A DNA stretch of 40,896 nt from a virus (Duplodnaviria; Heunggongvirae; Uroviricota; Caudoviricetes), in the IMG/VR virus record IMGVR_UViG_3300015188_000003, positions 1-40,896 of that record; one strand, written 5' to 3'. Below, piece by piece: positions 1,620 through 37,525 of this stretch (position 1 is the stretch's first letter; each line of letters starts with the position of its first letter). The position numbers and the translations under genes are program-made. A model generated the notes under the pieces. The model ran no database searches and was not told the origin of the DNA. It saw nothing but the letters and a program-made list of their open reading frames with translations.

Positions 1620-3931
1620 TATTTAAACCCCGGCGCGTTTCTTGTGGCCTTGCGGGCCTTGCTAATCTTACTGTTGCTGTTCTGCAAAGATGCAGCAACT
1701 TGCTCTTCTATGATGATACGCAGACGGCCTTCATCATCTTGCTCAGTGGACACGTTGCCAATCTGACTCGATGTATTATTTACAATGGTAACATTAGATG
1801 GGCCGGAAGAAGACCCGTTTTGCCCCATAATTTCTTTCATCTGCTGTGCGGTGCGTACACGTGACGCACCAGCGGGCATGATAACTTCTGGTTTACCACG
1901 TTCAGCGATGGTGGAAGCCTGCCCGGCTGATAACTGTCCGCCCTGTTCACGTGCGGACCTGATAGCGGAAATCTGCGCCATACCCGCCCCAACGGCAGCG
2001 GCGGCAGCTACAGGAGCCAGGAACGGACCAACTACAGGGATAGCCGCTGTGGACTTGTACGCCTCGATAGCCGCGGTGTACGTGGCGATAGTGGCCTGTA
2101 CGATAGCGAATGCCTTATACGCGCCAGAAGCCTCGCCCAAAGCCGAACCGATGTTTGAAGCCATGTTACCGAAGGCGGTTGCCGTTGCGTCGGCACGCTT
2201 CGTAGCATACTGCTCATTGATGGCGTTAAGCGCCGCCTGGTACTGCTTCTCACTAATAAGCCCCTGCTCACGGTACTTATCCGCTACCTCCAGTTTCTGC
2301 TGTTCCTGGATGTCGAGAAGCTCAAGCTCAGTAGCGTTCTGACCCATAATCTGTGCCATGAAGTCCTCGCCTTTCTGCTGCTTTTCCTGCTGCTCTTTTC
2401 TTTTCTTATCCAGTTCTTCCTGTCTGGCCTGCTCGGCTGTGAGCATAATTTGAGTTTTGGCGTTTTCATACTGCTGCTGGCTTATCGTTCCGGTGCGGTT
2501 GAACTCCTCCAGTTTCGCCAGTTTCTGTTCTTCCGCAGCGGTAATGCGCGAAATCTCATCTCCGGTTGTGCGGTCGACAGTAGCCAGGAAATCTTCCGCC
2601 GCTTTTTTCTGTCGTTCAGCCGCCGTTTCTTCGCGTTTGGCTTGTGCCGCCAGCCGTTTCTCGTTCGATTTGGCCTCGCGGTCGGCCTTCGCTTTTTCGG
2701 TAGCGTCGATGCGAGCGATGTCTTGTTGTGCTTCCGTGTCACGCGCAGCATTATACGCGGCGATCTGTTCTTTGGTGACAGCTTCACGTTTAGCGAACGC
2801 CTGCTTATCCAGTTCAGCTTGCGCACGGATACGCTCGCGGTCACTTAAGATAGCGATTTGCTGGTTTTTGACGATAGCTTCGTTCTGTTCCTGGAATCTC
2901 TGCGTTGTTGAGTTGACGTTACGACCAAGATTCTTTTGGGCCTCCGCCGCCGCGTTTGCGGACTTCTCCGCGTTCTCCAGTGCCGTGGCGTTCTTGTTGG
3001 CATTGTCGGTCAGGCGGATAAGTTCCGGGTTCAACTGTTTTGTATTACCGAGCCAGTCGGTAAACACATCGGCGATGCGACGGGCATTCTCGGCGGTTGG
3101 CTCTTTGTTAAACGCACTCTGCGCCGCTATCATCTCCAGCGCCTGGTCACGGTTAACCCCAAACTTACTGCTAAGCTCTGCGATATTCTGCGCCAGCATG
3201 TTGACGCCTACGATGTTACCCTCGTAAGTGCCACCGAGTTTTTCTAACGTGTCGCCTACATCCGCACCTTTAGAGACCAATGCATCGTACTGGCTGATAG
3301 CTGATGCTGTGGATGCCTTCCATGTCTCCCATGATTCTGCGTCCTCACGAACAGCTTTAGCTGTTTGCTGTGCGATAAGGTCCGCGTTAGCCTTAGCCAG
3401 CGCAAGCTGAGTCTCCGCCGCTTCTCTGCTGATTTGGGTAAGCTGGATAAGGCCGTCTGTCAGTTCGAGAGAGCCGGACGCCGTTTGCTGGAAAGTATCT
3501 TTTAGCTGTTTCTGTGCGGCTTCGAGGTCTTTTGAACTGCCTTCTGCTTCGGTTAACGATTTATACAGGACACCACCGATTGCTGACGCAAGAGCAATTA
3601 CGGCCCCAAGCACCGCGCCACCAGGGCCGAAAGCACCCGCAAGCTGAGAGCCTTGTTGCCCGATTGCTACGAATGCAGACGTGCCGGACTGCAACTGGAC
3701 GACCATGTCCTGCACCTGGAAGCCTACCTGCCCGGCGGCGTTACGGAATTTAGCGAAACCGTCAGAAGCCGCTTTAGACGTAGCGGAGTTTACTTTATTA
3801 ACATCCGGCGTTAGTTTGTTTACGGATGTGTCCGCACGGTCTGCGGATGCCGCCATAGCGTCAAGCTGTTTAGCGGCTACATCAGCGCCTTCTGTTTTTA
3901 CTCTGGCAATTAGGGAAGCCGTATCAGCCAT
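1619..3931 (-). CDS. tail tape measure protein
   Basis: Long Ala/Gln/Lys-rich coiled-coil ORF with Gly/Ala-rich hydrophobic segment, directly after G/G-T; ATG at 3931 with GAGGG SD (track start 3946 is TTG). Confidence 0.85.
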   Translation of the reverse strand: MADTASLIARVKTEGADVAAKQLDAMAASADRADTSVNKLTPDVNKVNSATSKAASDGFAKFRNAAGQVGFQVQDMVVQLQSGTSAFVAIGQQGSQLAGAFGPGGAVLGAVIALASAIGGVLYKSLTEAEGSSKDLEAAQKQLKDTFQQTASGSLELTDGLIQLTQISREAAETQLALAKANADLIAQQTAKAVREDAESWETWKASTASAISQYDALVSKGADVGDTLEKLGGTYEGNIVGVNMLAQNIAELSSKFGVNRDQALEMIAAQSAFNKEPTAENARRIADVFTDWLGNTKQLNPELIRLTDNANKNATALENAEKSANAAAEAQKNLGRNVNSTTQRFQEQNEAIVKNQQIAILSDRERIRAQAELDKQAFAKREAVTKEQIAAYNAARDTEAQQDIARIDATEKAKADREAKSNEKRLAAQAKREETAAERQKKAAEDFLATVDRTTGDEISRITAAEEQKLAKLEEFNRTGTISQQQYENAKTQIMLTAEQARQEELDKKRKEQQEKQQKGEDFMAQIMGQNATELELLDIQEQQKLEVADKYREQGLISEKQYQAALNAINEQYATKRADATATAFGNMASNIGSALGEASGAYKAFAIVQATIATYTAAIEAYKSTAAIPVVGPFLAPVAAAAAVGAGMAQISAIRSAREQGGQLSAGQASTIAERGKPEVIMPAGASRVRTAQQMKEIMGQNGSSSGPSNVTIVNNTSSQIGNVSTEQDDEGRLRIIIEEQVAASLQNSNSKISKARKATRNAPGFK

Positions 3932-4702
3932 CTTCTCTGCCCTCAAATATTCCGTCTAAGCCCATGATAACCTCGGCTTCGAACAAACTTATGCCGTAAC
4001 CGGCGACATCACGAAACGCTACCAAATCTTGCCATTTGAGCGCATCGCGCGGGATTATAACGATGGTATCATCTGTTTCGCGCTGTAGGAATTTAATGGC
4101 ACGGTATTTCTCGAACACGTCGATAAGAGAAACGGGGCATTCAGGCCCCGTCGTTTCTTTTATCTGCGGTTCTTTAATCACGCCCATTGCAATCAAAGCC
4201 GCCTGGTGGCCCGCCGCGATGTCGTCGAATTGCTTACGTTTGTGGCGGTCGACAAAGCACCATTGCGCAAATTCATACAGCGCTTTTACTTTTCCGAAAG
4301 TTTCTCGCGGCTATCGGTGTGGTGCTTAACTACGGCTTCTGCCAGTCCGCTGTACTGGTCAAACAGGTTAGCCAGCGCCTCTTTGCTGAACGGTTCGTCG
4401 AACGACCAACCGGTGACGATTTCCACGGCAAGCTGCTTGTTCAGGTCCATCACCCGCCAGCCCTTCTCATCATTATAACGCGCCCAGTTATTCAGTGCCT
4501 CGCACTCTTTATCTAAGGGCGCAAGTTCTTCCGTAAGGCGTCGAATTGCCGTTGTGTAGGCGCGGCCTGCACGAACACCCGCATCACAATCAGGGCCAAT
4601 GACCTGCAGCCATTCGCCGGAGTCTTTACCACTCGGCAGAAGGATAGGCATTTTAGTACCAGCAGCGTGGCGGTCGGCAAAATAAAAATCAGAAAGTTTC
4701 AT
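3924..4702 (-). CDS. tail assembly chaperone G-T fusion via programmed -1 frameshift (inferred)
   Basis: -1 frame is open from 4310 to 3924 and overlaps the last 8 codons of G; mRNA ends GAA-AAG-TAA where tRNA-Lys can slip AAG to AAA; T frame stops 8 nt inside the tape-measure start. Confidence 0.55.
4286..4702 (-). CDS. tail assembly chaperone (G-like)
   Basis: 138-aa ORF immediately upstream of tape measure; overlapping -1 frame open to 3924. Confidence 0.7.
   Translation of the reverse strand: MKLSDFYFADRHAAGTKMPILLPSGKDSGEWLQVIGPDCDAGVRAGRAYTTAIRRLTEELAPLDKECEALNNWARYNDEKGWRVMDLNKQLAVEIVTGWSFDEPFSKEALANLFDQYSGLAEAVVKHHTDSREKLSEK
4289..4295 (-). other. candidate -1 ribosomal slip site (mRNA G-GAA-AAG just before G stop)
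   Basis: Only position where G and T frames overlap with a Lys AAG/AAA slip option. Confidence 0.4.
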
Positions 4703-4809: not shown

Positions 4810-4838
4810 TTGCGCGCCCCAATATAATAGGGTACTAT
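4810..4838 (+). promoter_or_regulatory. sigma70-like promoter TTGCGC-N17-TACTAT with embedded operator-like 18-mer (4824..4841)
   Basis: Near-identical to the block at 13046..13074; sits upstream of + gene 4867. Confidence 0.45.
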
Positions 4839-4866
4839 TCACCAGTAACTTACTGAGGGTATAATT

Positions 4867-5193
4867 ATGCGTAAATTAGTATTAGCTCTGGGGTTTATGT
4901 CTTTTGCTACTTTTGGAGCCCCGTGCGAACAGGTATTTAGTGAATCTGTTCTTATGACTTCTGGTGTGCTTGATAAAGCCGACCCTACTATTGTAAAGGC
5001 ATTTAAGGACTCCACAGTCCGTGAATGCGAGGCCGCCGTAGATGTCGGTAAATCGGGCCTACCTCCGCAAGCCGTAACATACACGGTAATACGTTCGGTA
5101 GAGAAAACCGGAGACGCGTTTTACAGCCTTCTGACAGCCACCCGTCTGCAAATGGTAATGACTGGATGGGCAATAGGCGCAGAAAGTAAATAG
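4867..5193 (+). CDS. secreted/periplasmic small protein (108 aa), function unknown
   Basis: N-terminal signal peptide MRKLVLALGFMSFATFGAP; GAGGG SD 7 nt upstream; AT-richer than flanking genes; opposite strand to surrounding tail genes. Confidence 0.75.
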   Translation: MRKLVLALGFMSFATFGAPCEQVFSESVLMTSGVLDKADPTIVKAFKDSTVRECEAAVDVGKSGLPPQAVTYTVIRSVEKTGDAFYSLLTATRLQMVMTGWAIGAESK

Positions 5194-5257
5194 TTGCCTT
5201 TATTTAAAGGAATCCACTGTGGTTAAATAGGACAAATCCTAAGCACGAGGAATAAGC

Positions 5258-6388
5258 ATGGCCCGGAAGAAAATAACCGACGAACAGTTACAGGAAGAAT
5301 TGAACGCCGGTATGAAGAATATCGACATCGCCCGTAAATACGGCATCTCAGACCGCGTTATTCGTATCCGTAAAGCGAAGCTGGCTAAGAAAGGCGTAGG
5401 CCACGGGCGCGACGTCAGCCACCTTGTGCCAGATGGCTACAAGATTAAAGGAACGTCGTCACTTGTGGACGAATACGGCAACACTAAGCTGCAATGGGTT
5501 AAGACCGACACCGATGCCGAACGTCAGGTCGAGTTGATGAAAGCCGTAATCGAGGGCATGAAGTCAGAGATTACGCCCGTTGCGCCTGTTAAAGCCGTTC
5601 GAGCCAAACGCGACGATAAACTGCTCAATCTTTACACTGTATCTGATTTCCATCTCGGTATGCTGGCGTGGGCCGACGAGAGCGGCGACGACTGGGACAT
5701 AAAGATTGCGGAAGACCTGTTCTCCCGCTGGTTCGATGCGGCGTTTAAGAAAGCACCGGACGCGGGGACAGGTGTTATTAACCTGCTGGGTGACCTTGCG
5801 CACTTCGATAGTCTGGATGCCGTTACACCAGCGAGTGGTCATATCCTTGACGCGGACACGCGCTACCAGAAACTTGTCCGCTACATGATTCGTATGGTAC
5901 GTCGTGTCGTTGATATGGCTCTTGTTAAGCATAAAACTGTTCGCTTGCTTATCGTGCAAGGGAACCACGACGAAAGCGGAATGATTTGGTTAGCTGAGAT
6001 GTTCAGTACGCTATACGACAACGAGCCTCGTGTGTTCGTCGATACGTCGCCGGATGTTTACAAGATGGTGCAACACGGCAAAACGACGTTGTTCTTCCAT
6101 CACGGGCATAAGGCACGCTTCGACGCTATCGAACCGGTTATGATTGCCAAGTTCCGCAAAGCGTTCGGTGAGAGTGTTTACAGCTACGCCCACGTAGGCC
6201 ACCTGCACCACCAGAAGATTGTAGAAAGCCGTAACATGATTGTTGAGCAACACCGCACCTTAGCGGCGAAAGACGCCTACGCCTCGCGCGGCGGATGGAT
6301 GTCTGGGCGTAGCGCAAACGTAATTACTTATAGCGCCGAATATGGCGAGGTCGCACGTTTAACTATTTCACCGGAGATGCTGGGATGA
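5258..6388 (+). CDS. HTH-domain protein fused to calcineurin-like metallophosphoesterase
   Basis: N-terminal HTH-like NIDIARKYGISDRVIRIRK; phosphoesterase motifs SDFHLG, GDLAHFD, GNHDE, HHGH, GHLHH; GAGGA SD. Confidence 0.8.
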   Translation: MARKKITDEQLQEELNAGMKNIDIARKYGISDRVIRIRKAKLAKKGVGHGRDVSHLVPDGYKIKGTSSLVDEYGNTKLQWVKTDTDAERQVELMKAVIEGMKSEITPVAPVKAVRAKRDDKLLNLYTVSDFHLGMLAWADESGDDWDIKIAEDLFSRWFDAAFKKAPDAGTGVINLLGDLAHFDSLDAVTPASGHILDADTRYQKLVRYMIRMVRRVVDMALVKHKTVRLLIVQGNHDESGMIWLAEMFSTLYDNEPRVFVDTSPDVYKMVQHGKTTLFFHHGHKARFDAIEPVMIAKFRKAFGESVYSYAHVGHLHHQKIVESRNMIVEQHRTLAAKDAYASRGGWMSGRSANVITYSAEYGEVARLTISPEMLG

Positions 6389-6615
6389 CTTCAAAATACA
6401 ACCGCACAATGACAAATACTCACGGCAGCACTATGACAGTAGACGTTTATGATGTGCTCCGCGCTTTCGACATCCGCGACCCGGCGTTACAGCACGCATT
6501 GAAGAAGCTATTGTGCATGGGTTTACGTGGACACAAGGACACCGGAACCGACTTAGCGGAAGCAATTGAAAGTCTGGAAAAGTTACGGGAGTACAGGAGT
6601 AACATTGATGAGTAA
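6385..6615 (+). CDS. hypothetical protein (76 aa)
   Basis: ATGA start/stop overlap with upstream gene; followed by terminator. Confidence 0.6.
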   Translation: MTSKYNRTMTNTHGSTMTVDVYDVLRAFDIRDPALQHALKKLLCMGLRGHKDTGTDLAEAIESLEKLREYRSNIDE

Positions 6616-6647
6616 TAAAAAAGGCCCCTTTCGGGGCCTTAGTTTTA
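6616..6647. terminator. bidirectional rho-independent terminator (AAGGCCCC-TTTC-GGGGCCTT flanked by A-run and T-run)
   Basis: Perfect 8-bp GC stem with U-tracts on both strands between convergent genes. Confidence 0.75.
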
Positions 6648-12494: not shown

Positions 12495-12726
12495 GGGTAA
12501 TCACCTCTGATTTCGTCTTGCCTTCGTTGTCAGCGGCGGCGGCCTTTGATTCGTCCTGCTGCTGCCGTTGTGTTTTCTTCGCTAACTCAGCCTGCGCTTT
12601 CTGCTGTTGCTGCGAAACGAGATTCGCCCGGCCTTCGCTCCAGCCGCTGCGATACTGGTAAATGCCGTGGGCGTAAGCCAGGATGATGAAACATGCTCCT
12701 GCTACGACAGTTGCTTTAAGATTCAT
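12340..12726 (-). CDS. i-spanin (Rz-like)
   Basis: N-terminal TMD ATVVAGACFIILAYAHGIY followed by Gln/Lys/Glu-rich coiled-coil. Confidence 0.6.
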   Translation of the reverse strand: MNLKATVVAGACFIILAYAHGIYQYRSGWSEGRANLVSQQQQKAQAELAKKTQRQQQDESKAAAADNEGKTKSEVITREVVKYIKTPGRSVCTFDDARVLLKSHAVANANSITGYDDDAASVQTGSAK

Positions 12727-12740
12727 GTTTCCCCTTTCTC

Positions 12741-12770
12741 GATAAGTAAAGCCCCGCCATAAAGCGGGGC
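12741..12770 (-). terminator. GC hairpin (GCCCCGC-CATAAA-GCGGGGC) plus U-tract; possible 3' end of leftward transcript from repeat element A
   Basis: 7-bp GC stem followed on - strand by TTTACTTAT. Confidence 0.4.
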
Positions 12771-12849
12771 GCTAGTCCTTATCATTTAAACATAGAAACG
12801 GCGTAATCTCAGTAAACCAGTTACTTTTTACACAAGCAATAGAGTATGG

Positions 12850-12979
12850 CCCTTCCGAACGCGTCAGCGTAACTACACTCAGGACTTACGTCCCGCTCCG
12901 TTACCTGCCCGCGCCGCGGTCGCTTGTTCATACTTCACAAGCTCAGGTGGAGCTTATCATATTTTTAGTGAAAAGTCAA
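12850..12979 (-). repeat. conserved ~130-bp intergenic element, copy A (candidate sRNA/leader; paralogue of 23858..23988)
   Basis: Long blocks identical to copy B with indels in the central part; contains candidate - strand promoter and an AAGCTC...GAGCTT hairpin. Confidence 0.6.
12951..12979 (-). promoter_or_regulatory. candidate leftward promoter TTGACT-N17-TAAGCT inside element A
   Basis: Conserved with identical spacing in copy B. Confidence 0.35.
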
Positions 12980-13045
12980 CTATTCGAATAGTTTATTCCA
13001 ACATTTACAATTCGGTGGAATAACTGGAATACGTAAATAAATAGT

Positions 13046-13074
13046 TTGCACACCCCAATATAATAGGGTACTAT
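13046..13074 (+). promoter_or_regulatory. sigma70-like promoter TTGCAC-N17-TACTAT with operator-like 18-mer (13060..13077)
   Basis: Same architecture as 4810..4838; precedes strong SD and + gene 13102. Confidence 0.45.
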
Positions 13075-13101
13075 TCAGTTAACTTAAACAGGAGGTGAAA
13101 A

Positions 13102-13305
13102 ATGTATGCAATTTGCGAAGTAGTTCAAGAGTTCGATGAAGAGTTCGACGGTGACTTGTGCCGGGTTAAAAAGGTTCTGCAGGTTTTCCCTGACGCAATG
13201 TCTGCTTACAAGGCATTAGATATATTTGAACCTGGAAGATACGGGGATTATGACACTGTTCTGAGGGTTGTCCATGAGCAGGATTTAAACACAAGATTCC
13301 GTTGA
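13102..13305 (+). CDS. small acidic protein (67 aa), accessory gene on opposite strand
   Basis: AGGAGGTG SD; own promoter and terminator; embedded between leftward head genes and spanins. Confidence 0.7.
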   Translation: MYAICEVVQEFDEEFDGDLCRVKKVLQVFPDAMSAYKALDIFEPGRYGDYDTVLRVVHEQDLNTRFR

Positions 13306-13335
13306 AAACTAAGGCCCCTTAATGGGGCCTTTTAT
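13306..13335. terminator. bidirectional terminator (AAGGCCCC-TTAAT-GGGGCCTT + T-run)
   Basis: GC hairpin between convergent genes. Confidence 0.7.
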
Positions 13336-13796
13336 CATTCTGGTTTAGCGACCTTCGCCGCTTTACTGACGGCCTCTACGCCACCGGCATCGGTAACTTT
13401 AACGAAGTATTCACCAACTGCATTAACCGTCAGAGACAAGGCCTCTTCCGGGGCGTTTACCACTTCCTTACCGTCTTTGTACCAGGTCAGAGCATACGGT
13501 GCTTTACCTGCCTTAACTTCGACAGTGATAGTTGCGCTGCCATCTGTAAGTTCAGTGTCTTTCGGTTGCACAGAGAAATACACGTCACCAGCGTCCGCCA
13601 GATACGGAATTTCATAAAGCATACCAGCGGCAGAGAGTGCGATACCTGTCTTGTCTGCGTACGGCATCTCGTCTACAGGTGTACCTAGTACACTTTCATC
13701 CTCAACGTAGGTTACGTTCTCACCGGAGCCAGACACACGAGCGTACTGGACTACGCGACGTGACGGCACATCAGTTACTTTGAAAAAGCCCATCAT
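13335..13796 (-). CDS. virion-associated protein with Ig-like C-terminal region (153 aa)
   Basis: Translationally coupled to upstream head morphogenesis gene. Confidence 0.6.
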   Translation of the reverse strand: MMGFFKVTDVPSRRVVQYARVSGSGENVTYVEDESVLGTPVDEMPYADKTGIALSAAGMLYEIPYLADAGDVYFSVQPKDTELTDGSATITVEVKAGKAPYALTWYKDGKEVVNAPEEALSLTVNAVGEYFVKVTDAGGVEAVSKAAKVAKPE

Positions 13797-23397: not shown

Positions 23398-23616
23398 TTA
23401 TTTAAAGTAGATAGCGAATTTCTTGTAACCCGCAGGCTCATTACGAAGCCCCTTACCGATAGCGAAACGTTGTACGTTGTTAAAATCGTTTCCATCCATA
23501 CCGTCGGTGCCGAACGTAAAGAAGTTGCGTTTGTTCCCGATAATTACGCGCTCTGAAATATCGATGCCGTAAACTTGTTTGATTGCGGAAACTACGCTTG
23601 CGGTCGCTTTGTTCAT
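23398..23616 (-). CDS. hypothetical early protein (72 aa)
   Basis: First gene downstream of promoter 23651..23679. Confidence 0.6.
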   Translation of the reverse strand: MNKATASVVSAIKQVYGIDISERVIIGNKRNFFTFGTDGMDGNDFNNVQRFAIGKGLRNEPAGYKKFAIYFK

Positions 23617-23650
23617 TTCTAAATTCCTTATGTCTCGTTTCGATAAGTGA

Positions 23651-23679
23651 ATAGTAACCTATTATGTTGGGGTGTGCAA
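23651..23679 (-). promoter_or_regulatory. sigma70-like promoter TTGCAC-N17-TACTAT with operator 18-mer (23648..23665), leftward
   Basis: Reverse complement near-identical to 13046..13077. Confidence 0.45.
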
Positions 23680-23714: not shown

Positions 23715-23777
23715 TCTTAAAAGAGTACGCAACGCAGTGGGTGGGCGTTAGCCCACCCCAGCGGAGTGAAGTACTCT
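23715..23777 (-). terminator. two-tier hairpin (outer AGAGTAC/GTACTCT, inner GGGTGGGC-GTTA-GCCCACCC) with U-rich tail; possible 3' end of transcript from element B
   Basis: Inverted repeats read directly; weak U-tract after outer stem on - strand. Confidence 0.35.
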
Positions 23778-23857
23778 CTACCTTGCTCACGGCAACTATA
23801 GAAACTTTTAATTATCAGTGACTTGGATATTTAGGCGGGATTAACAATAGACTTTGA

Positions 23858-23988
23858 CCCTTCCGAAAGCGTCAGCGGAACTACACTCAAGTGCCTAATG
23901 GCACGCGTTGCGTTCCCTGCCGCTCCGCGGTCGCTTGCGATATCTCACAAGCTCAGTGAAGCTTAGCATATTTTCAAGTAAAAGTCAA
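23858..23988 (-). repeat. conserved ~130-bp intergenic element, copy B (candidate sRNA/leader)
   Basis: Aligned with 12850..12979; shared blocks include CCCTTCCGAA.GCGTCAGCG.AACTACACTCA, CCGCGGTCGCTTG and TCACAAGCTCAG...AAAAGTCAA. Confidence 0.6.
23960..23988 (-). promoter_or_regulatory. candidate leftward promoter TTGACT-N17-TAAGCT inside element B
   Basis: Same boxes and spacing as in copy A. Confidence 0.35.
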
Positions 23989-35560: not shown

Positions 35561-35590
35561 GAAAAGGCCCCAAACGGGGCCTTAGTTTTA
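35561..35590. terminator. bidirectional terminator between replication block and tailspike (AAGGCCCC-AAAC-GGGGCCTT)
   Basis: Perfect 8-bp GC stem with A/T runs on both sides between convergent genes. Confidence 0.75.
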
Positions 35591-37525
35591 TGTTATTGAT
35601 GGAGTCTGACGCCAGTTAGTCCCGTCGAAGGTGTATTCAATTATATCCCCTCCGCCAAGATTTTTAGCAATATTAGCATTGTTGACAATACCGCCAATAC
35701 CCGGATTGTGGTTGAACACAACGGTATTAGCGGAGCCGTTACGAATGGCTAATCTGAACCCGGGGGACACAGGCTGCCCAATTACGTCATTAACGTTAAT
35801 ACTGCTATAAGAACTAGAAGCCGCTGCCGTGGTGATAAACACTGCTCCAGAATTGAATAATGAATCCCCGACAGTAAGGGCCTGCGCTGCTCCAGAAACC
35901 GTTACCTCTGTGTATCCAGGTCTGGGCTTGCCCGCGCCTAATACCTTAGCACGCACGCCGGATAGCCTGTTATTCGCATAGCTGTTCCCGAGCGTAAGCC
36001 CCGCAAATGCGGGCCCGTAATTCACCGCCAAATGAATATTAGACCCGACGAACAATCCAACACCACTGGAAACTTCAAAGGCAGTATCAACGGCGGCGGC
36101 ATTCGTGATTGAACCATAGAACCCATCAACGGTGAGTTGCTCGCAGAACCCAACTGAAGCTAGTTTGACACTGCTAACCGCTGATACACCATTAAGAGAC
36201 ACATTATACAGCTTACCAGAGGCCCCGCCATCGATGACAAAATCGGCGTAGGTAGCCCCACTATAGCTGACCCCGTTAACTACAATATCGTTAACAACCC
36301 CGGCAGTCGACCCGTTAATACGGCAGTTTATCGCGGAGCCTGTACTTTCAAGATTAGATACAAGAATGCGCTCCATTTGTGCTGTGGTAGCAATCAGCCA
36401 CACGCCCTGGCTGCAAACGCCGTTGCCTACGTTAACATGGCCCGTAACAACGACATTTTTGGCTGTACTGAATTCGGCGTCAGATTTGATAATCAGCCCG
36501 GTATCGCAGCTATAAGTTATAAGACCCTTAGCCACAACATTTCTACTTTTTATGGCAACACCGAACAGGTTATACGCGCCGGTAACATCAGAAATATGGG
36601 CGGCATCGTACCCCTCTACCAGACAGGCATGGAAAGCGTCAGTTGCTGCAAGACCAGCAGCTACTACATTTCTAACCCTAGCGCTAGCACCTGCCGCGTT
36701 ATCTGTTGACAACACCAGGGCGTCTCCTGGGGAGCCGGTAGGCCGCTTAAACCCCATGTTTTCAATTACAACTTGATTTCCAGAAAAACGCATGCCGCCG
36801 ATAATTCTGCTGCCGGATGTCATTGTATTTGTCGATGCGTTATAAAAAGGTACTTTATCGCCAATAATTGTAATGTTTTGAGTTACAGTCCCGCCTGTAT
36901 ACACATATGGTTTTGATGGGACCCTGAGGGGGATGTTATTGGAGGAACAGTACACAATAGCGTTAGTTATAGCGGTAGTGTCGTCAGTAGTGCCATCACC
37001 TACCGCGCCGAAATCATCGGGGGTCATATACCCTATTTTGAAATGATCAACCTCGCCCTGCACCGTGCGCCCCGAAGACGTACCAACTAACCCTGCACCA
37101 GTGCTTAGGGCCAAATCACGGCGCAATGCAGCTTCGCTAACGGCAACCCATGCGGTCTTACCTACTCCGCCCGTCGAGGCTGGCGTCGAAGATGCCGGGA
37201 TAGTTTTTGGCAGAGCACCCTTCCATGCATAATAGTTGCCGTCGCCTGATGGCCCAGGCCACAACACCGCCAGGTCAGCGTCGTTAACGCCCAACGTCCC
37301 ACCTGTTTCGAATGTGAAAGACGCAGGTCTGAACCCGGCGTCGCGCAACACGGCGGGGAGTGTCTTCTGCGTCTGCCCTGTAACCTGATTTGTTGCGTAA
37401 TCAATATCAGCACCAGTAGCAACACCACCGGATTTACCAGTAATAACCTCAGCTTCAAAAATCTGGTGCTTCTTGGCGGTCTGTAAATCCGCCAGGCTTA
37501 AAACGTCACCGCATCCGCTTGACAT
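35588..37525 (-). CDS. tailspike / receptor-binding protein (645 aa)
   Basis: Last gene of the tail operon; Gly/Asn/Ser/Thr/Val-rich repetitive body suggesting beta-helix. Confidence 0.6.
   Translation of the reverse strand: MSSGCGDVLSLADLQTAKKHQIFEAEVITGKSGGVATGADIDYATNQVTGQTQKTLPAVLRDAGFRPASFTFETGGTLGVNDADLAVLWPGPSGDGNYYAWKGALPKTIPASSTPASTGGVGKTAWVAVSEAALRRDLALSTGAGLVGTSSGRTVQGEVDHFKIGYMTPDDFGAVGDGTTDDTTAITNAIVYCSSNNIPLRVPSKPYVYTGGTVTQNITIIGDKVPFYNASTNTMTSGSRIIGGMRFSGNQVVIENMGFKRPTGSPGDALVLSTDNAAGASARVRNVVAAGLAATDAFHACLVEGYDAAHISDVTGAYNLFGVAIKSRNVVAKGLITYSCDTGLIIKSDAEFSTAKNVVVTGHVNVGNGVCSQGVWLIATTAQMERILVSNLESTGSAINCRINGSTAGVVNDIVVNGVSYSGATYADFVIDGGASGKLYNVSLNGVSAVSSVKLASVGFCEQLTVDGFYGSITNAAAVDTAFEVSSGVGLFVGSNIHLAVNYGPAFAGLTLGNSYANNRLSGVRAKVLGAGKPRPGYTEVTVSGAAQALTVGDSLFNSGAVFITTAAASSSYSSINVNDVIGQPVSPGFRLAIRNGSANTVVFNHNPGIGGIVNNANIAKNLGGGDIIEYTFDGTNWRQTPSIT

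What the first reader, a model, noticed from the sequence alone, without database searches (positions are those of the whole stretch)
13046..13335. Single-gene accessory cassette (67-aa acidic protein) on the opposite strand between head genes and spanins
A small acidic ORF with a very strong SD (AGGAGGTG) is driven by the same operator-bearing promoter as the tail-module island and ends at a bidirectional terminator. It interrupts the leftward structural block. Small acidic early proteins in this layout are frequently inhibitors of host defence or host enzymes.
Basis: partly seen in the sequence, partly recalled or inferred. Interest (0 to 1): 0.55.

Follow-up and report, generated by a model that had tools for sequence, protein, structure and literature searches.

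The report
Swappable one-gene cassette in phage
A small acidic protein gene of unknown function sits in a slot of a Kagunavirus phage genome where related phages carry a dozen other unrelated genes or nothing, so it is an optional, horizontally traded extra and only a candidate host- or defence-inhibitor.

Summary
Window 13102-13305(+) is a real 67-aa acidic ORF (pI 4.5). It has an AGGAGGTG Shine-Dalgarno, a conserved 32-bp upstream box and a hairpin terminator that folds on both strands. The window is a Kagunavirus (Guernseyvirinae). The same box occurs three times in the window: before this ORF, before the opposite-strand tail island, and before the operon of small ORFs. In 42 related loci, the interval between the Hoc-like head gene and the spanin gene is empty in 9. 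Elsewhere it holds one of at least 11 unrelated cargo families, always between the same box and the same terminator. This gene is in about 11% of relatives. It also occurs in a different slot of Jerseyvirus VSt10 and in unrelated Klebsiella phages. It is under purifying selection and nearly identical between phages whose flanking genes differ by 12-14%. So it is a mobile promoter-gene-terminator cassette, like a moron or a T4 PeSL cassette. Its function is unknown: no Pfam, NCBIfam, PADLOC, PDB sequence or fold match. The anti-defence reading is plausible but untested, and carriers are RM-sensitive. The more unusual feature is next door: a highly conserved, structured leader RNA with covariation support, present twice in the window and absent from Rfam.

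The parts
13046..13077 (+). Conserved upstream box TTGCACACCCCAATATAATAGGGTACTATTCA, the presumed promoter. Best sigma-70 register is TTGCAC-17-TACTAT. It also contains a perfect TATAAT at 13059-13064.
   Evidence: Three copies in the window against 0 expected. Present at the same slot position (about 327) in cargo-bearing relatives and absent from the 9 cargo-free loci. Not flagged by the consensus promoter scan.
13090..13097 (+). Shine-Dalgarno AGGAGGTG, 6 nt spacing to the ATG.
   Evidence: Read directly. The SD-bearing 5'UTR (GTTAACTTAAACAGGAG..) is shared by several unrelated cargo genes in the slot.
13102..13305 (+). 67-aa acidic protein gene. It corresponds to Bas73_0006 ('hypothetical protein') and matches PHROG 27256 (unknown function).
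   Evidence: AF2 model pLDDT 89, beta-hairpin/helix/strand. dN/dS 0.23 against the SHAK7858 copy.
13311..13331 (.). Bidirectional intrinsic terminator AAGGCCCC-TTAAT-GGGGCCTT. It ends both the cassette transcript and the leftward Hoc-like gene (13335-13796).
   Evidence: Retained in cargo-free relatives. Annotated on both strands in Schulenburg.
12993..13031 (.). Left boundary of the insertion: a TTATTCCA...TGGAATAA inverted pair and a TGGAATAACTGGAATA direct repeat. In cargo-free relatives this joins almost directly to the terminator.
   Evidence: The repeats are conserved even in the distant-genus loci L044, L045 and L049.
4811..4841 (+). Second copy of the box. It heads the opposite-strand tail island: 108-aa, 376-aa HTH-metallophosphoesterase and 76-aa ORFs (4867-6615).
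6621..6640 (.). Terminator of the same type (AAGGCCCC-TTTC-GGGGCCTT) closing the tail island.
   Evidence: A third copy of the GGCCCC-N-GGGGCC core is at 35566-35581.
23648..23679 (-). Third copy of the box (2 mismatches). It heads the leftward operon of small ORFs starting with the 72-aa ORF at 23616..23398.
   Evidence: It corresponds to the region just upstream of Bas73_0056.
12745..12979 (-). Neighbour, not part of the cassette: a near-consensus promoter (TTGACT-17-TGaTAAGCT), a roughly 200-nt structured leader RNA ('RNA-A') and an intrinsic terminator (12770-12751), directly upstream of the i-spanin ATG at 12726.

Best explanation
The feature is a self-contained, horizontally mobile accessory cassette: upstream box, SD, one ORF and a bidirectional terminator. 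It sits in a hypervariable slot of a virulent Kagunavirus, between the Hoc-like head-decoration gene and the leader RNA and spanin genes.

Shown:
- The ORF is a real gene under purifying selection.
- The slot is empty or holds at least 11 unrelated cargo families in relatives, always between the same box and the same terminator.
- The same cassette sits in a different slot in Jerseyvirus VSt10.
- Family members occur in unrelated Klebsiella phages.
- The cassette is nearly identical between phages whose flanking genes differ by 12-14%.

Inferred mechanism of spread: homologous recombination at the repeated box and terminator motifs swaps cargo between genomes and between slots, as PeSL cassettes do in T4-type phages.

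Inferred function: the product is a small, soluble, acidic, single-domain protein (beta-hairpin, helix, strand). It is co-regulated with the operon of small ORFs. It most likely acts stoichiometrically by binding a host macromolecule. My first choice of target is a strain-variable defence component.

My confidence that it is a mobile accessory cassette is about 0.9. My confidence that it is specifically a counter-defence inhibitor is about 0.3. The single figure given for this explanation (0.55) is a compromise between the two.
For: Real gene. 33 phage records and 18 clusters at 90% identity hold homologues. There are 22 representatives at 50% identity among 1.84 billion proteins, nearly all 63-75 aa, with conserved motifs including an invariant C-terminal FR. 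dN/dS is 0.23. The AF2 model is confident, pLDDT 89.

Accessory slot. The interval is 339-1583 bp in 42 loci and 9 are empty. Cargo always starts at about slot position 375 and ends at ...AAGGCCCC-loop-GGGGCCTT. Cargo includes an N6/N4 DNA methyltransferase, a PAPS-reductase-like protein, an endonuclease-VII-like protein, a beta-clamp-like protein and several small proteins of unknown function.

Mobility. VSt10 carries the gene between its portal and MuF-like genes, with the same type of box and terminator. Geezett, Kpn2-P2 and Shemara carry it in other contexts. The ORF is 97.5-100% identical in nucleotides where the flanking hoc gene is 86-88% identical. The 376/377-aa HTH-metallophosphoesterase sits in the tail island here but in the Hoc|spanin slot in L045 and L049.

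Repeated boundary motifs. The window has 3 boxes and 3 terminators of one type.

Restricted to phages. No match in plasmids or in complete E. coli genomes.

The PeSL concept comes from PMC2839356.

Against: Bas70-76 all carry the gene, yet they are reported as highly RM-sensitive and variably Old-sensitive.

The box is a poor sigma-70 match, so promoter activity and timing are unproven.

A net charge of -6 is modest for a DNA mimic.
Confidence: 0.55

Rival explanations
1. Host-takeover factor. The protein binds and inhibits or redirects a conserved host enzyme, such as RNA polymerase, a protease/adaptor or a nuclease, rather than a dedicated defence system.
Confidence: 0.2
2. Inter-phage competition. 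The protein protects the infected cell from superinfecting or co-infecting phages, or from satellites.
For: Hypervariable slots in phages often carry such genes. That is general knowledge and was not tested here. Another cargo in the slot is a 70-aa protein with an N-terminal hydrophobic stretch.
Against: The 67-aa protein has no hydrophobic stretch suggesting a signal peptide or membrane segment. It matches no PADLOC defence model; the best hit is AbiTi at E 0.053 in 1 of 13 members.
Confidence: 0.1
3. A passenger with little or no function of its own. The ORF persists because the box-terminator slot is a recombination hot spot, or what matters is transcription from the box (insulation or antisense control of the neighbouring late units) rather than the protein.
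For: The slot tolerates being empty (9 of 42 loci) and accepts any cargo. The near-identical nucleotide sequence across diverged backgrounds could reflect recent spread rather than selection.
Against: dN/dS is 0.23 against a copy that is 13% diverged in nucleotides. Length and motifs are kept down to about 45% identity across phage genera and in quite different genomic contexts. The predicted fold is confident.
Confidence: 0.1
4. Head-assembly or virion accessory protein, given its position among head genes.
For: It lies between head genes here, and also in VSt10 and Geezett.
Against: It is on the opposite strand with its own signals and is missing from most relatives with the same head genes. 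In Kpn2-P2 and Shemara it lies among replication or post-lysis small genes.
Confidence: 0.05

Closest known systems
PeSL (promoter-early stem-loop) mobile regulatory cassettes of T4-type phages (Arbiol et al. 2010, PMC2839356; PMC4122927)
   Same: Repeated promoter-like and stem-loop-terminator motifs flank small, non-essential, mostly unknown ORFs. Close relatives differ by insertion, deletion or replacement of the ORF between the motifs. The same motifs recur at several places in one genome.
   Different: This is a different phage group: 41-45 kb siphoviruses of the Guernseyvirinae. The motif sequences are different. The cassettes lie singly on the opposite strand inside structural modules, not in long hyperplastic regions. 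The box is not a strong sigma-70 consensus. Mini-circle formation is untested.
Morons of lambdoid phages (promoter-gene-terminator units between conserved genes; my recollection of Juhala et al. 2000)
   Same: An autonomous transcription unit inserted between two genes that are adjacent in relatives, with presence/absence polymorphism.
   Different: Classical morons are expressed from prophages and benefit the lysogen. This phage has no recognisable lysogeny module in the closest annotated relative, and the family is absent from complete E. coli genomes.
Small acidic phage inhibitors of host defence or host enzymes (Ocr, ArdA, anti-CRISPRs, T7 Gp2)
   Same: Size, acidity, single domain, accessory distribution, and co-regulation with small ORFs of the presumptive early region.
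   Different: No sequence or significant structural similarity to any of them. Carriers are RM-sensitive. No functional data exist.
For the neighbouring leader RNA only: HK022 putL/putR antiterminator RNAs (PMC9378689) and the lambda/Stx PR'-tR' leader (PMC7547250)
   Same: Two paralogous copies in this window. Each lies directly downstream of a strong sigma-70 promoter, folds into two stem-loops with bulges, and is followed by an intrinsic terminator and a long operon.
   Different: About 100 nt rather than about 70 nt. Sequence similarity to put was not tested. Copy B is missing from Bas73. The phage is virulent. Antitermination activity is untested.

Membership tests
Moron / autonomous accessory cassette | Present in some and absent from other closely related genomes at the same junction | tested here: met
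   9 of 42 loci are empty, 4 carry this gene and the rest carry other cargo. About 20 of about 180 GenBank records with the slot carry it.
Moron / autonomous accessory cassette | Own terminator | tested here: met
   8-bp GC-rich hairpin plus T-tract, about -16 kcal/mol on both strands.
Moron / autonomous accessory cassette | Own promoter | tested here: inconclusive
   A conserved box is repeated 3 times ahead of operons, but it matches sigma-70 consensus at only 7 of 12 positions and was not flagged by the scan. No transcript data.
PeSL-type mobile regulatory cassette | The same promoter and stem-loop motifs repeated in the genome, flanking variable ORFs | tested here: met
   3 boxes and 3 AAGGCCCC..GGGGCCTT hairpins in the window. 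Both opposite-strand islands are bounded by one of each.
PeSL-type mobile regulatory cassette | Cargo exchange between motifs among close relatives and between sites | tested here: met
   At least 11 cargo families share one box, UTR and terminator. The 67-aa cassette is in another slot in VSt10. The 376-aa gene is in either slot.
PeSL-type mobile regulatory cassette | Recombination-derived mini-circles | not testable with these tools
   Needs PCR or sequencing of infected-cell or virion DNA.
Known anti-defence families (Ocr/ArdA DNA mimics, anti-CRISPRs) | Sequence or fold homology to a characterised member | tested here: not met
Known anti-defence families (Ocr/ArdA DNA mimics, anti-CRISPRs) | Carrier phages escape the targeted system (for Ocr or ArdA, restriction-modification) | tested here: not met
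   Bas70-76 all encode the protein at 98.5-100% identity and are described as highly sensitive to RM systems (PMC11990801). Other defence systems remain open.
T7 Gp2-like RNA polymerase inhibitor | Profile or sequence similarity to Gp2 | tested here: not met
   hhalign probability 0.2%.
ClpS-like adaptor fold | Significant structural superposition | tested here: inconclusive
Virion structural protein | Detected in purified virions, and conserved with the head module | not testable with these tools
   No proteomics is available. The sporadic distribution argues against it.
put-like antiterminator RNA (neighbouring RNA-A/RNA-B only) | Two stem-loop RNA directly downstream of a promoter and upstream of terminators and a long operon | tested here: met
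   Folds of 7 sequence variants (6 adopt the common fold, A2 differs). 96.2% of cells paired against at most 41.5% for slid controls, with 7 compensatory pairs. Terminator at 12770-12751. The scan flagged no minus-strand promoter between the terminator and the spanin ATG.
put-like antiterminator RNA (neighbouring RNA-A/RNA-B only) | Terminator read-through that depends on the RNA and on the beta' zinc-binding domain | not testable with these tools
   Needs reporter or in vitro transcription assays.

The most novel reading that the evidence does not exclude
The 67-aa protein founds a new family of phage counter-defence (or host-enzyme) inhibitors with a fold not matched in the PDB. It is traded as a ready-made box-ORF-terminator cassette among Escherichia, Salmonella and Klebsiella siphoviruses. 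The Hoc|spanin slot of Guernseyvirinae would then be a compact catalogue of about a dozen further candidate host-interaction genes.
Probability: 0.3. Interest if true: 0.6.

Novelty: new member of a known kind. Interest (0 to 1): 0.35.

Why it matters
On its own, the gene is one more uncharacterised small phage protein. Its context gives it practical value.

The slot is sharply bounded. It can be empty or hold any of a dozen cargoes, one of which is a DNA methyltransferase. That makes it a convenient place to look for host-interaction or counter-defence genes. It is also a natural 'safe harbour' for engineering Kagunaviruses, which are already used as small synthetic-biology and therapy chassis (PMC11990801). 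Seven BASEL phages carry this exact gene, so deletion and complementation tests are straightforward.

The adjacent leader RNA is conserved across two genera and is not in Rfam. It may explain how late genes are switched on in this phage subfamily.

Tried and rejected
Function searches that found nothing useful:
- Pfam, NCBIfam and PADLOC gave no significant match.
- PHROGs gave only family 27256, of unknown function.
- A profile search of PDB sequences gave only designed proteins at E of about 0.06.

Ideas tested and rejected:
- T7 Gp2 (hhalign probability 0.2%).
- A conserved partner gene. The roughly 170-aa genes that follow the homologue in Geezett and Kpn2-P2 are unrelated to each other and to the 173-aa Schulenburg cargo.
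- Carriage on plasmids or E. coli prophages. No match.

Literature:
- No paper mentions the family's accessions or the PHROG number.
- The K1B4 Kagunavirus transcriptome paper and its supplements are too coarse to time this slot.

For the RNA:
- Rfam at gathering thresholds and in E-value mode gave nothing credible. There are no tRNAs.
- The covariance model did not reach the distant-genus loci L044, L045 and L049.
- Five longer pattern hits in unrelated contigs were chance matches.

Full report
**What the window is.** The 1.1 kb around the finding matches 184 phage records, nearly all Escherichia Kagunavirus or Salmonella Jerseyvirus of the subfamily Guernseyvirinae. The best local match is Escherichia phage GertrudWoker_Bas73 at 98.8%. 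Across the whole window the match to Bas73 is mosaic, 87-99% in blocks with unmatched stretches, so this is another Kagunavirus and not Bas73 itself. In Bas73 the ORF is annotated as Bas73_0006, 'hypothetical protein'. It lies between a Hoc-like head-decoration gene and the Rz-like spanins.

**Checking the observation.**
- The ORF 13102..13305(+) encodes 67 aa. It has pI 4.5 and net charge -6.4.
- AGGAGGTG lies at 13090-13097, at optimal spacing from the ATG.
- The upstream box TTGCACACCCCAATATAATAGGGTACTATTCA (13046-13077) recurs at 4811-4841(+), ahead of the opposite-strand tail island. It recurs with two mismatches at 23679-23648(-), ahead of a 72-aa ORF that opens the operon of small ORFs. 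The 25-nt core gives 3 matches against 0 expected.
- The hairpin at 13311-13331 folds to about -16 kcal/mol on both strands, with U-rich tails. Its Schulenburg homologue is annotated as a terminator on both strands.
- The same hairpin type closes the tail island at 6621-6640. A third copy lies at about 35566-35581.

So the description is correct, with two caveats. First, the box is a poor sigma-70 consensus. TTGCAC-17-TACTAT matches 7 of 12 positions, the internal perfect TATAAT has no suitably spaced -35, and the scan did not call it. Promoter function and 'operator' status are therefore inferred. Second, the structural block is already split at this point in relatives that have no cargo (see below).

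**The slot.** I fetched 44 IMG/VR loci using the Hoc-like protein as query and measured the interval from the Hoc-like stop to the i-spanin start in 42 loci that have both flanks.
- Nine loci are 'empty', at 339-343 bp. They have only the conserved left part and the terminator, with no box and no ORF.
- All the others share one plan in the Kaguna/Jersey-like loci: the box at about position 327, an SD, a start codon at about 375, one cargo ORF (rarely two), then TAAAACTAAGGCCCC-loop-GGGGCCTTTTA.
- The cargo differs between loci: proteins of 57, 67, 70 (with an N-terminal hydrophobic stretch), 81, 83 and 94/106 aa; a 173-aa beta-clamp-like protein (the commonest, 9 loci); a 179-aa endonuclease-VII-like protein; a 242-246-aa N6/N4 DNA methyltransferase; a PAPS-reductase-like protein; and a 377-aa HTH-metallophosphoesterase. 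The last two occur in the three distant-genus loci, whose upstream sequence differs.
- The 67-aa gene is in 4 of the 42 loci. In GenBank it is in about 20 of the roughly 180 records that have the slot.

**Mobility.**
- In Jerseyvirus VSt10 a 63%-identical copy lies in a different opposite-strand slot, between the portal and MuF-like genes. It is preceded by a box of the same type (..CCAAATATAATAGGGTACTATT..) and followed by the same terminator type.
- Klebsiella Jedunavirus Geezett has a copy between its MuF-like and portal genes. Kpn2-P2 has one among replication genes. Cornellvirus Shemara has one after the endolysin.
- Against phage NTEC3 the ORF is 100% identical in nucleotides while the adjacent hoc gene is 86% identical. 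L016 and L017 show the same contrast. That points to recent transfer by recombination.
- Against the 13%-diverged SHAK7858 copy, dN/dS is 0.23.
- The 376-aa HTH-metallophosphoesterase of this window's tail island is 85% identical to the cargo of the Hoc|spanin slot in L045 and L049. Cargo therefore also moves between box-driven slots.
- No copy exists in plasmids or in complete E. coli genomes.

The closest described phenomenon is the PeSL cassette of T4-type phages. There, repeated promoter plus stem-loop motifs mediate modular shuffling of small non-essential ORFs (PMC2839356). The lambdoid 'moron' is the other obvious analogue; I cite that from memory.

**The protein.**
- The family is small: 18 clusters at 90% identity, and 22 representatives at 50% identity among 1.84 billion proteins. 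Nearly all members are stand-alone proteins of 63-75 aa.
- Conserved motifs are CEV, FDG/DQS, KVLQVF, an aromatic P-x-x-Y..DY loop, RVV, and an invariant C-terminal FR.
- AlphaFold2 gives a confident model, pLDDT 89: beta-hairpin 2-12/17-29, helix 32-42, strand 53-58.
- The secondary-structure order recalled T7 Gp2, but hhalign gives probability 0.2%.

**Most likely mode of action.** What is shown: this is an optional, selected, horizontally traded one-gene unit that shares its upstream box with two other transcription units. What is inferred: the box is a promoter; the gene is co-expressed with the small-ORF operon next to the replication genes; and the small acidic domain works by binding a host macromolecule. 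The sporadic distribution and the company it keeps in the slot (a DNA methyltransferase and other DNA-modification or nuclease-like cargo) make a strain-specific counter-defence role my first choice, at about 0.3. Inhibition of a conserved host enzyme comes next, at about 0.2. Against a broad anti-restriction role: Bas70-76 all carry the gene, yet they are reported as highly RM-sensitive and variably Old-sensitive (PMC11990801).

**The neighbour that deserves more attention.** The left, invariant part of the slot is not just spacer.
- On the minus strand there is a near-consensus promoter (TTGACT-17-TGaTAAGCT, 12979-12951) and a roughly 200-nt transcript region. It ends in a strong terminator (12770-12751, -19 kcal/mol) only about 25 nt before the i-spanin start. 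The scan flagged no minus-strand promoter between the terminator and that start.
- A paralogue lies at about 23988-23730(-), upstream of the third box.
- The 284-nt region is 95-100% identical in 180 of 181 Kaguna/Jerseyvirus records. That is more conserved than the flanking coding genes.
- Six of seven sequence variants fold independently into one architecture: a short hairpin plus a long irregular stem. The seventh (A2) folds differently.
- On a MAFFT alignment 94.8% of cells pair, against 29-40% in slid controls, with 5 compensatory pairs. On a model-fitted alignment the figures are 96.2% against at most 41.5%, with 7 compensatory pairs and a covariation score of 0.183 against 0.073 (0 of 500 shuffles).
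- One-base indels and loss of the ATG in some variants rule out the 36-aa ORF that annotators call here, Bas73_0007 / Schulenberg_008.
- Rfam 15 has no match.
- Bas73 lacks copy B and has an unrelated promoter, leader and terminator in its place.

The spanin-scaffold-capsid operon appears to depend on read-through of this terminator. I therefore read the element as a late-operon leader. It could be a put-like cis-acting antiterminator RNA (HK022 putL/putR, PMC9378689). Alternatively it could be the terminated leader of a lambda PR'-tR'-type switch (PMC7547250, listed). No Q-like protein is annotated in Bas73. This interpretation is inference only.

**Verdict.** The 'accessory cassette' reading is supported. 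The 'defence inhibitor' reading is plausible but untested. The feature is a new, uncharacterised member of a known kind of element. Interest is modest for the ORF itself and higher for the slot as a resource and for the adjacent leader RNA.

Noticed in passing
window 12745-12979 (-) and about 23730-23988 (-): Two paralogous structured leader RNAs. Each follows a near-consensus sigma-70 promoter and ends in an intrinsic terminator just upstream of a long operon. Copy A is 95-100% identical across about 180 Kaguna/Jerseyvirus genomes. The structure has covariation support and no Rfam match. Candidate put-like or PR'-tR'-like late-gene antitermination leader.
   Followed up: yes
window 12821-12931 (-): The 36-aa 'hypothetical protein' annotated in relatives (Bas73_0007, Schulenberg_008, SHAK7858_0006) lies inside the leader RNA. 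It is broken by 1-nt indels or loss of the ATG in variants, so it is probably a mis-annotation.
   Followed up: partly
window 12978-13031: Perfect 16-bp palindrome AACTATTCGAATAGTT overlapping the -35 of the leader-RNA promoter, plus TGGAATAA inverted and direct repeats. These are conserved even in the distant-genus loci L044, L045 and L049. Likely a protein-binding regulatory array for the late promoter.
   Followed up: no
window 4867-6615 (+); L045 and L049 slot cargo: The tail island is driven by the same box. It encodes a 108-aa protein with a hydrophobic, signal-peptide-like N-terminus (my reading of the sequence), a 376-aa HTH-metallophosphoesterase and a 76-aa protein. The 376-aa gene is 85% identical to the Hoc|spanin-slot cargo of a distant genus, so it has moved between slots.
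   Followed up: partly
window 13247-13274 (-): A sigma-70-like site (TGGACA-16-CATAAT with an upstream TG, 10 of 12 matches) lies inside the 67-aa ORF on the antisense strand. It may be chance: 3 sites were found against 2.3 expected in the region.
   Followed up: no
L003 (Salmonella phage ER23) 4824-5474; L106 (VSt10) 1501-1704; L002 (Schulenburg) 3415-3984: Jerseyviruses have a second opposite-strand cargo slot between the portal and MuF-like genes. Schulenburg has an HNH endonuclease inserted between the MuF-like and Hoc-like genes. One GenBank relative (fEg-Eco06) is annotated with an intein in the minor head protein.
   Followed up: no
L003 2402-3130 compared with L027 slot cargo: The slot's DNA methyltransferase is a single 242-aa ORF in L027 but is split into 101-aa and 137-aa ORFs in ER23. 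This is probably a frameshift or pseudogene.
   Followed up: no
L051 (Bas73) 37030-37340: Where this window has leader-RNA copy B, Bas73 has an unrelated promoter, a roughly 270-nt stretch and a terminator. That stretch overlaps an annotated 106-aa ORF (Bas73_0055). It may be a different small RNA occupying the same position.
   Followed up: partly
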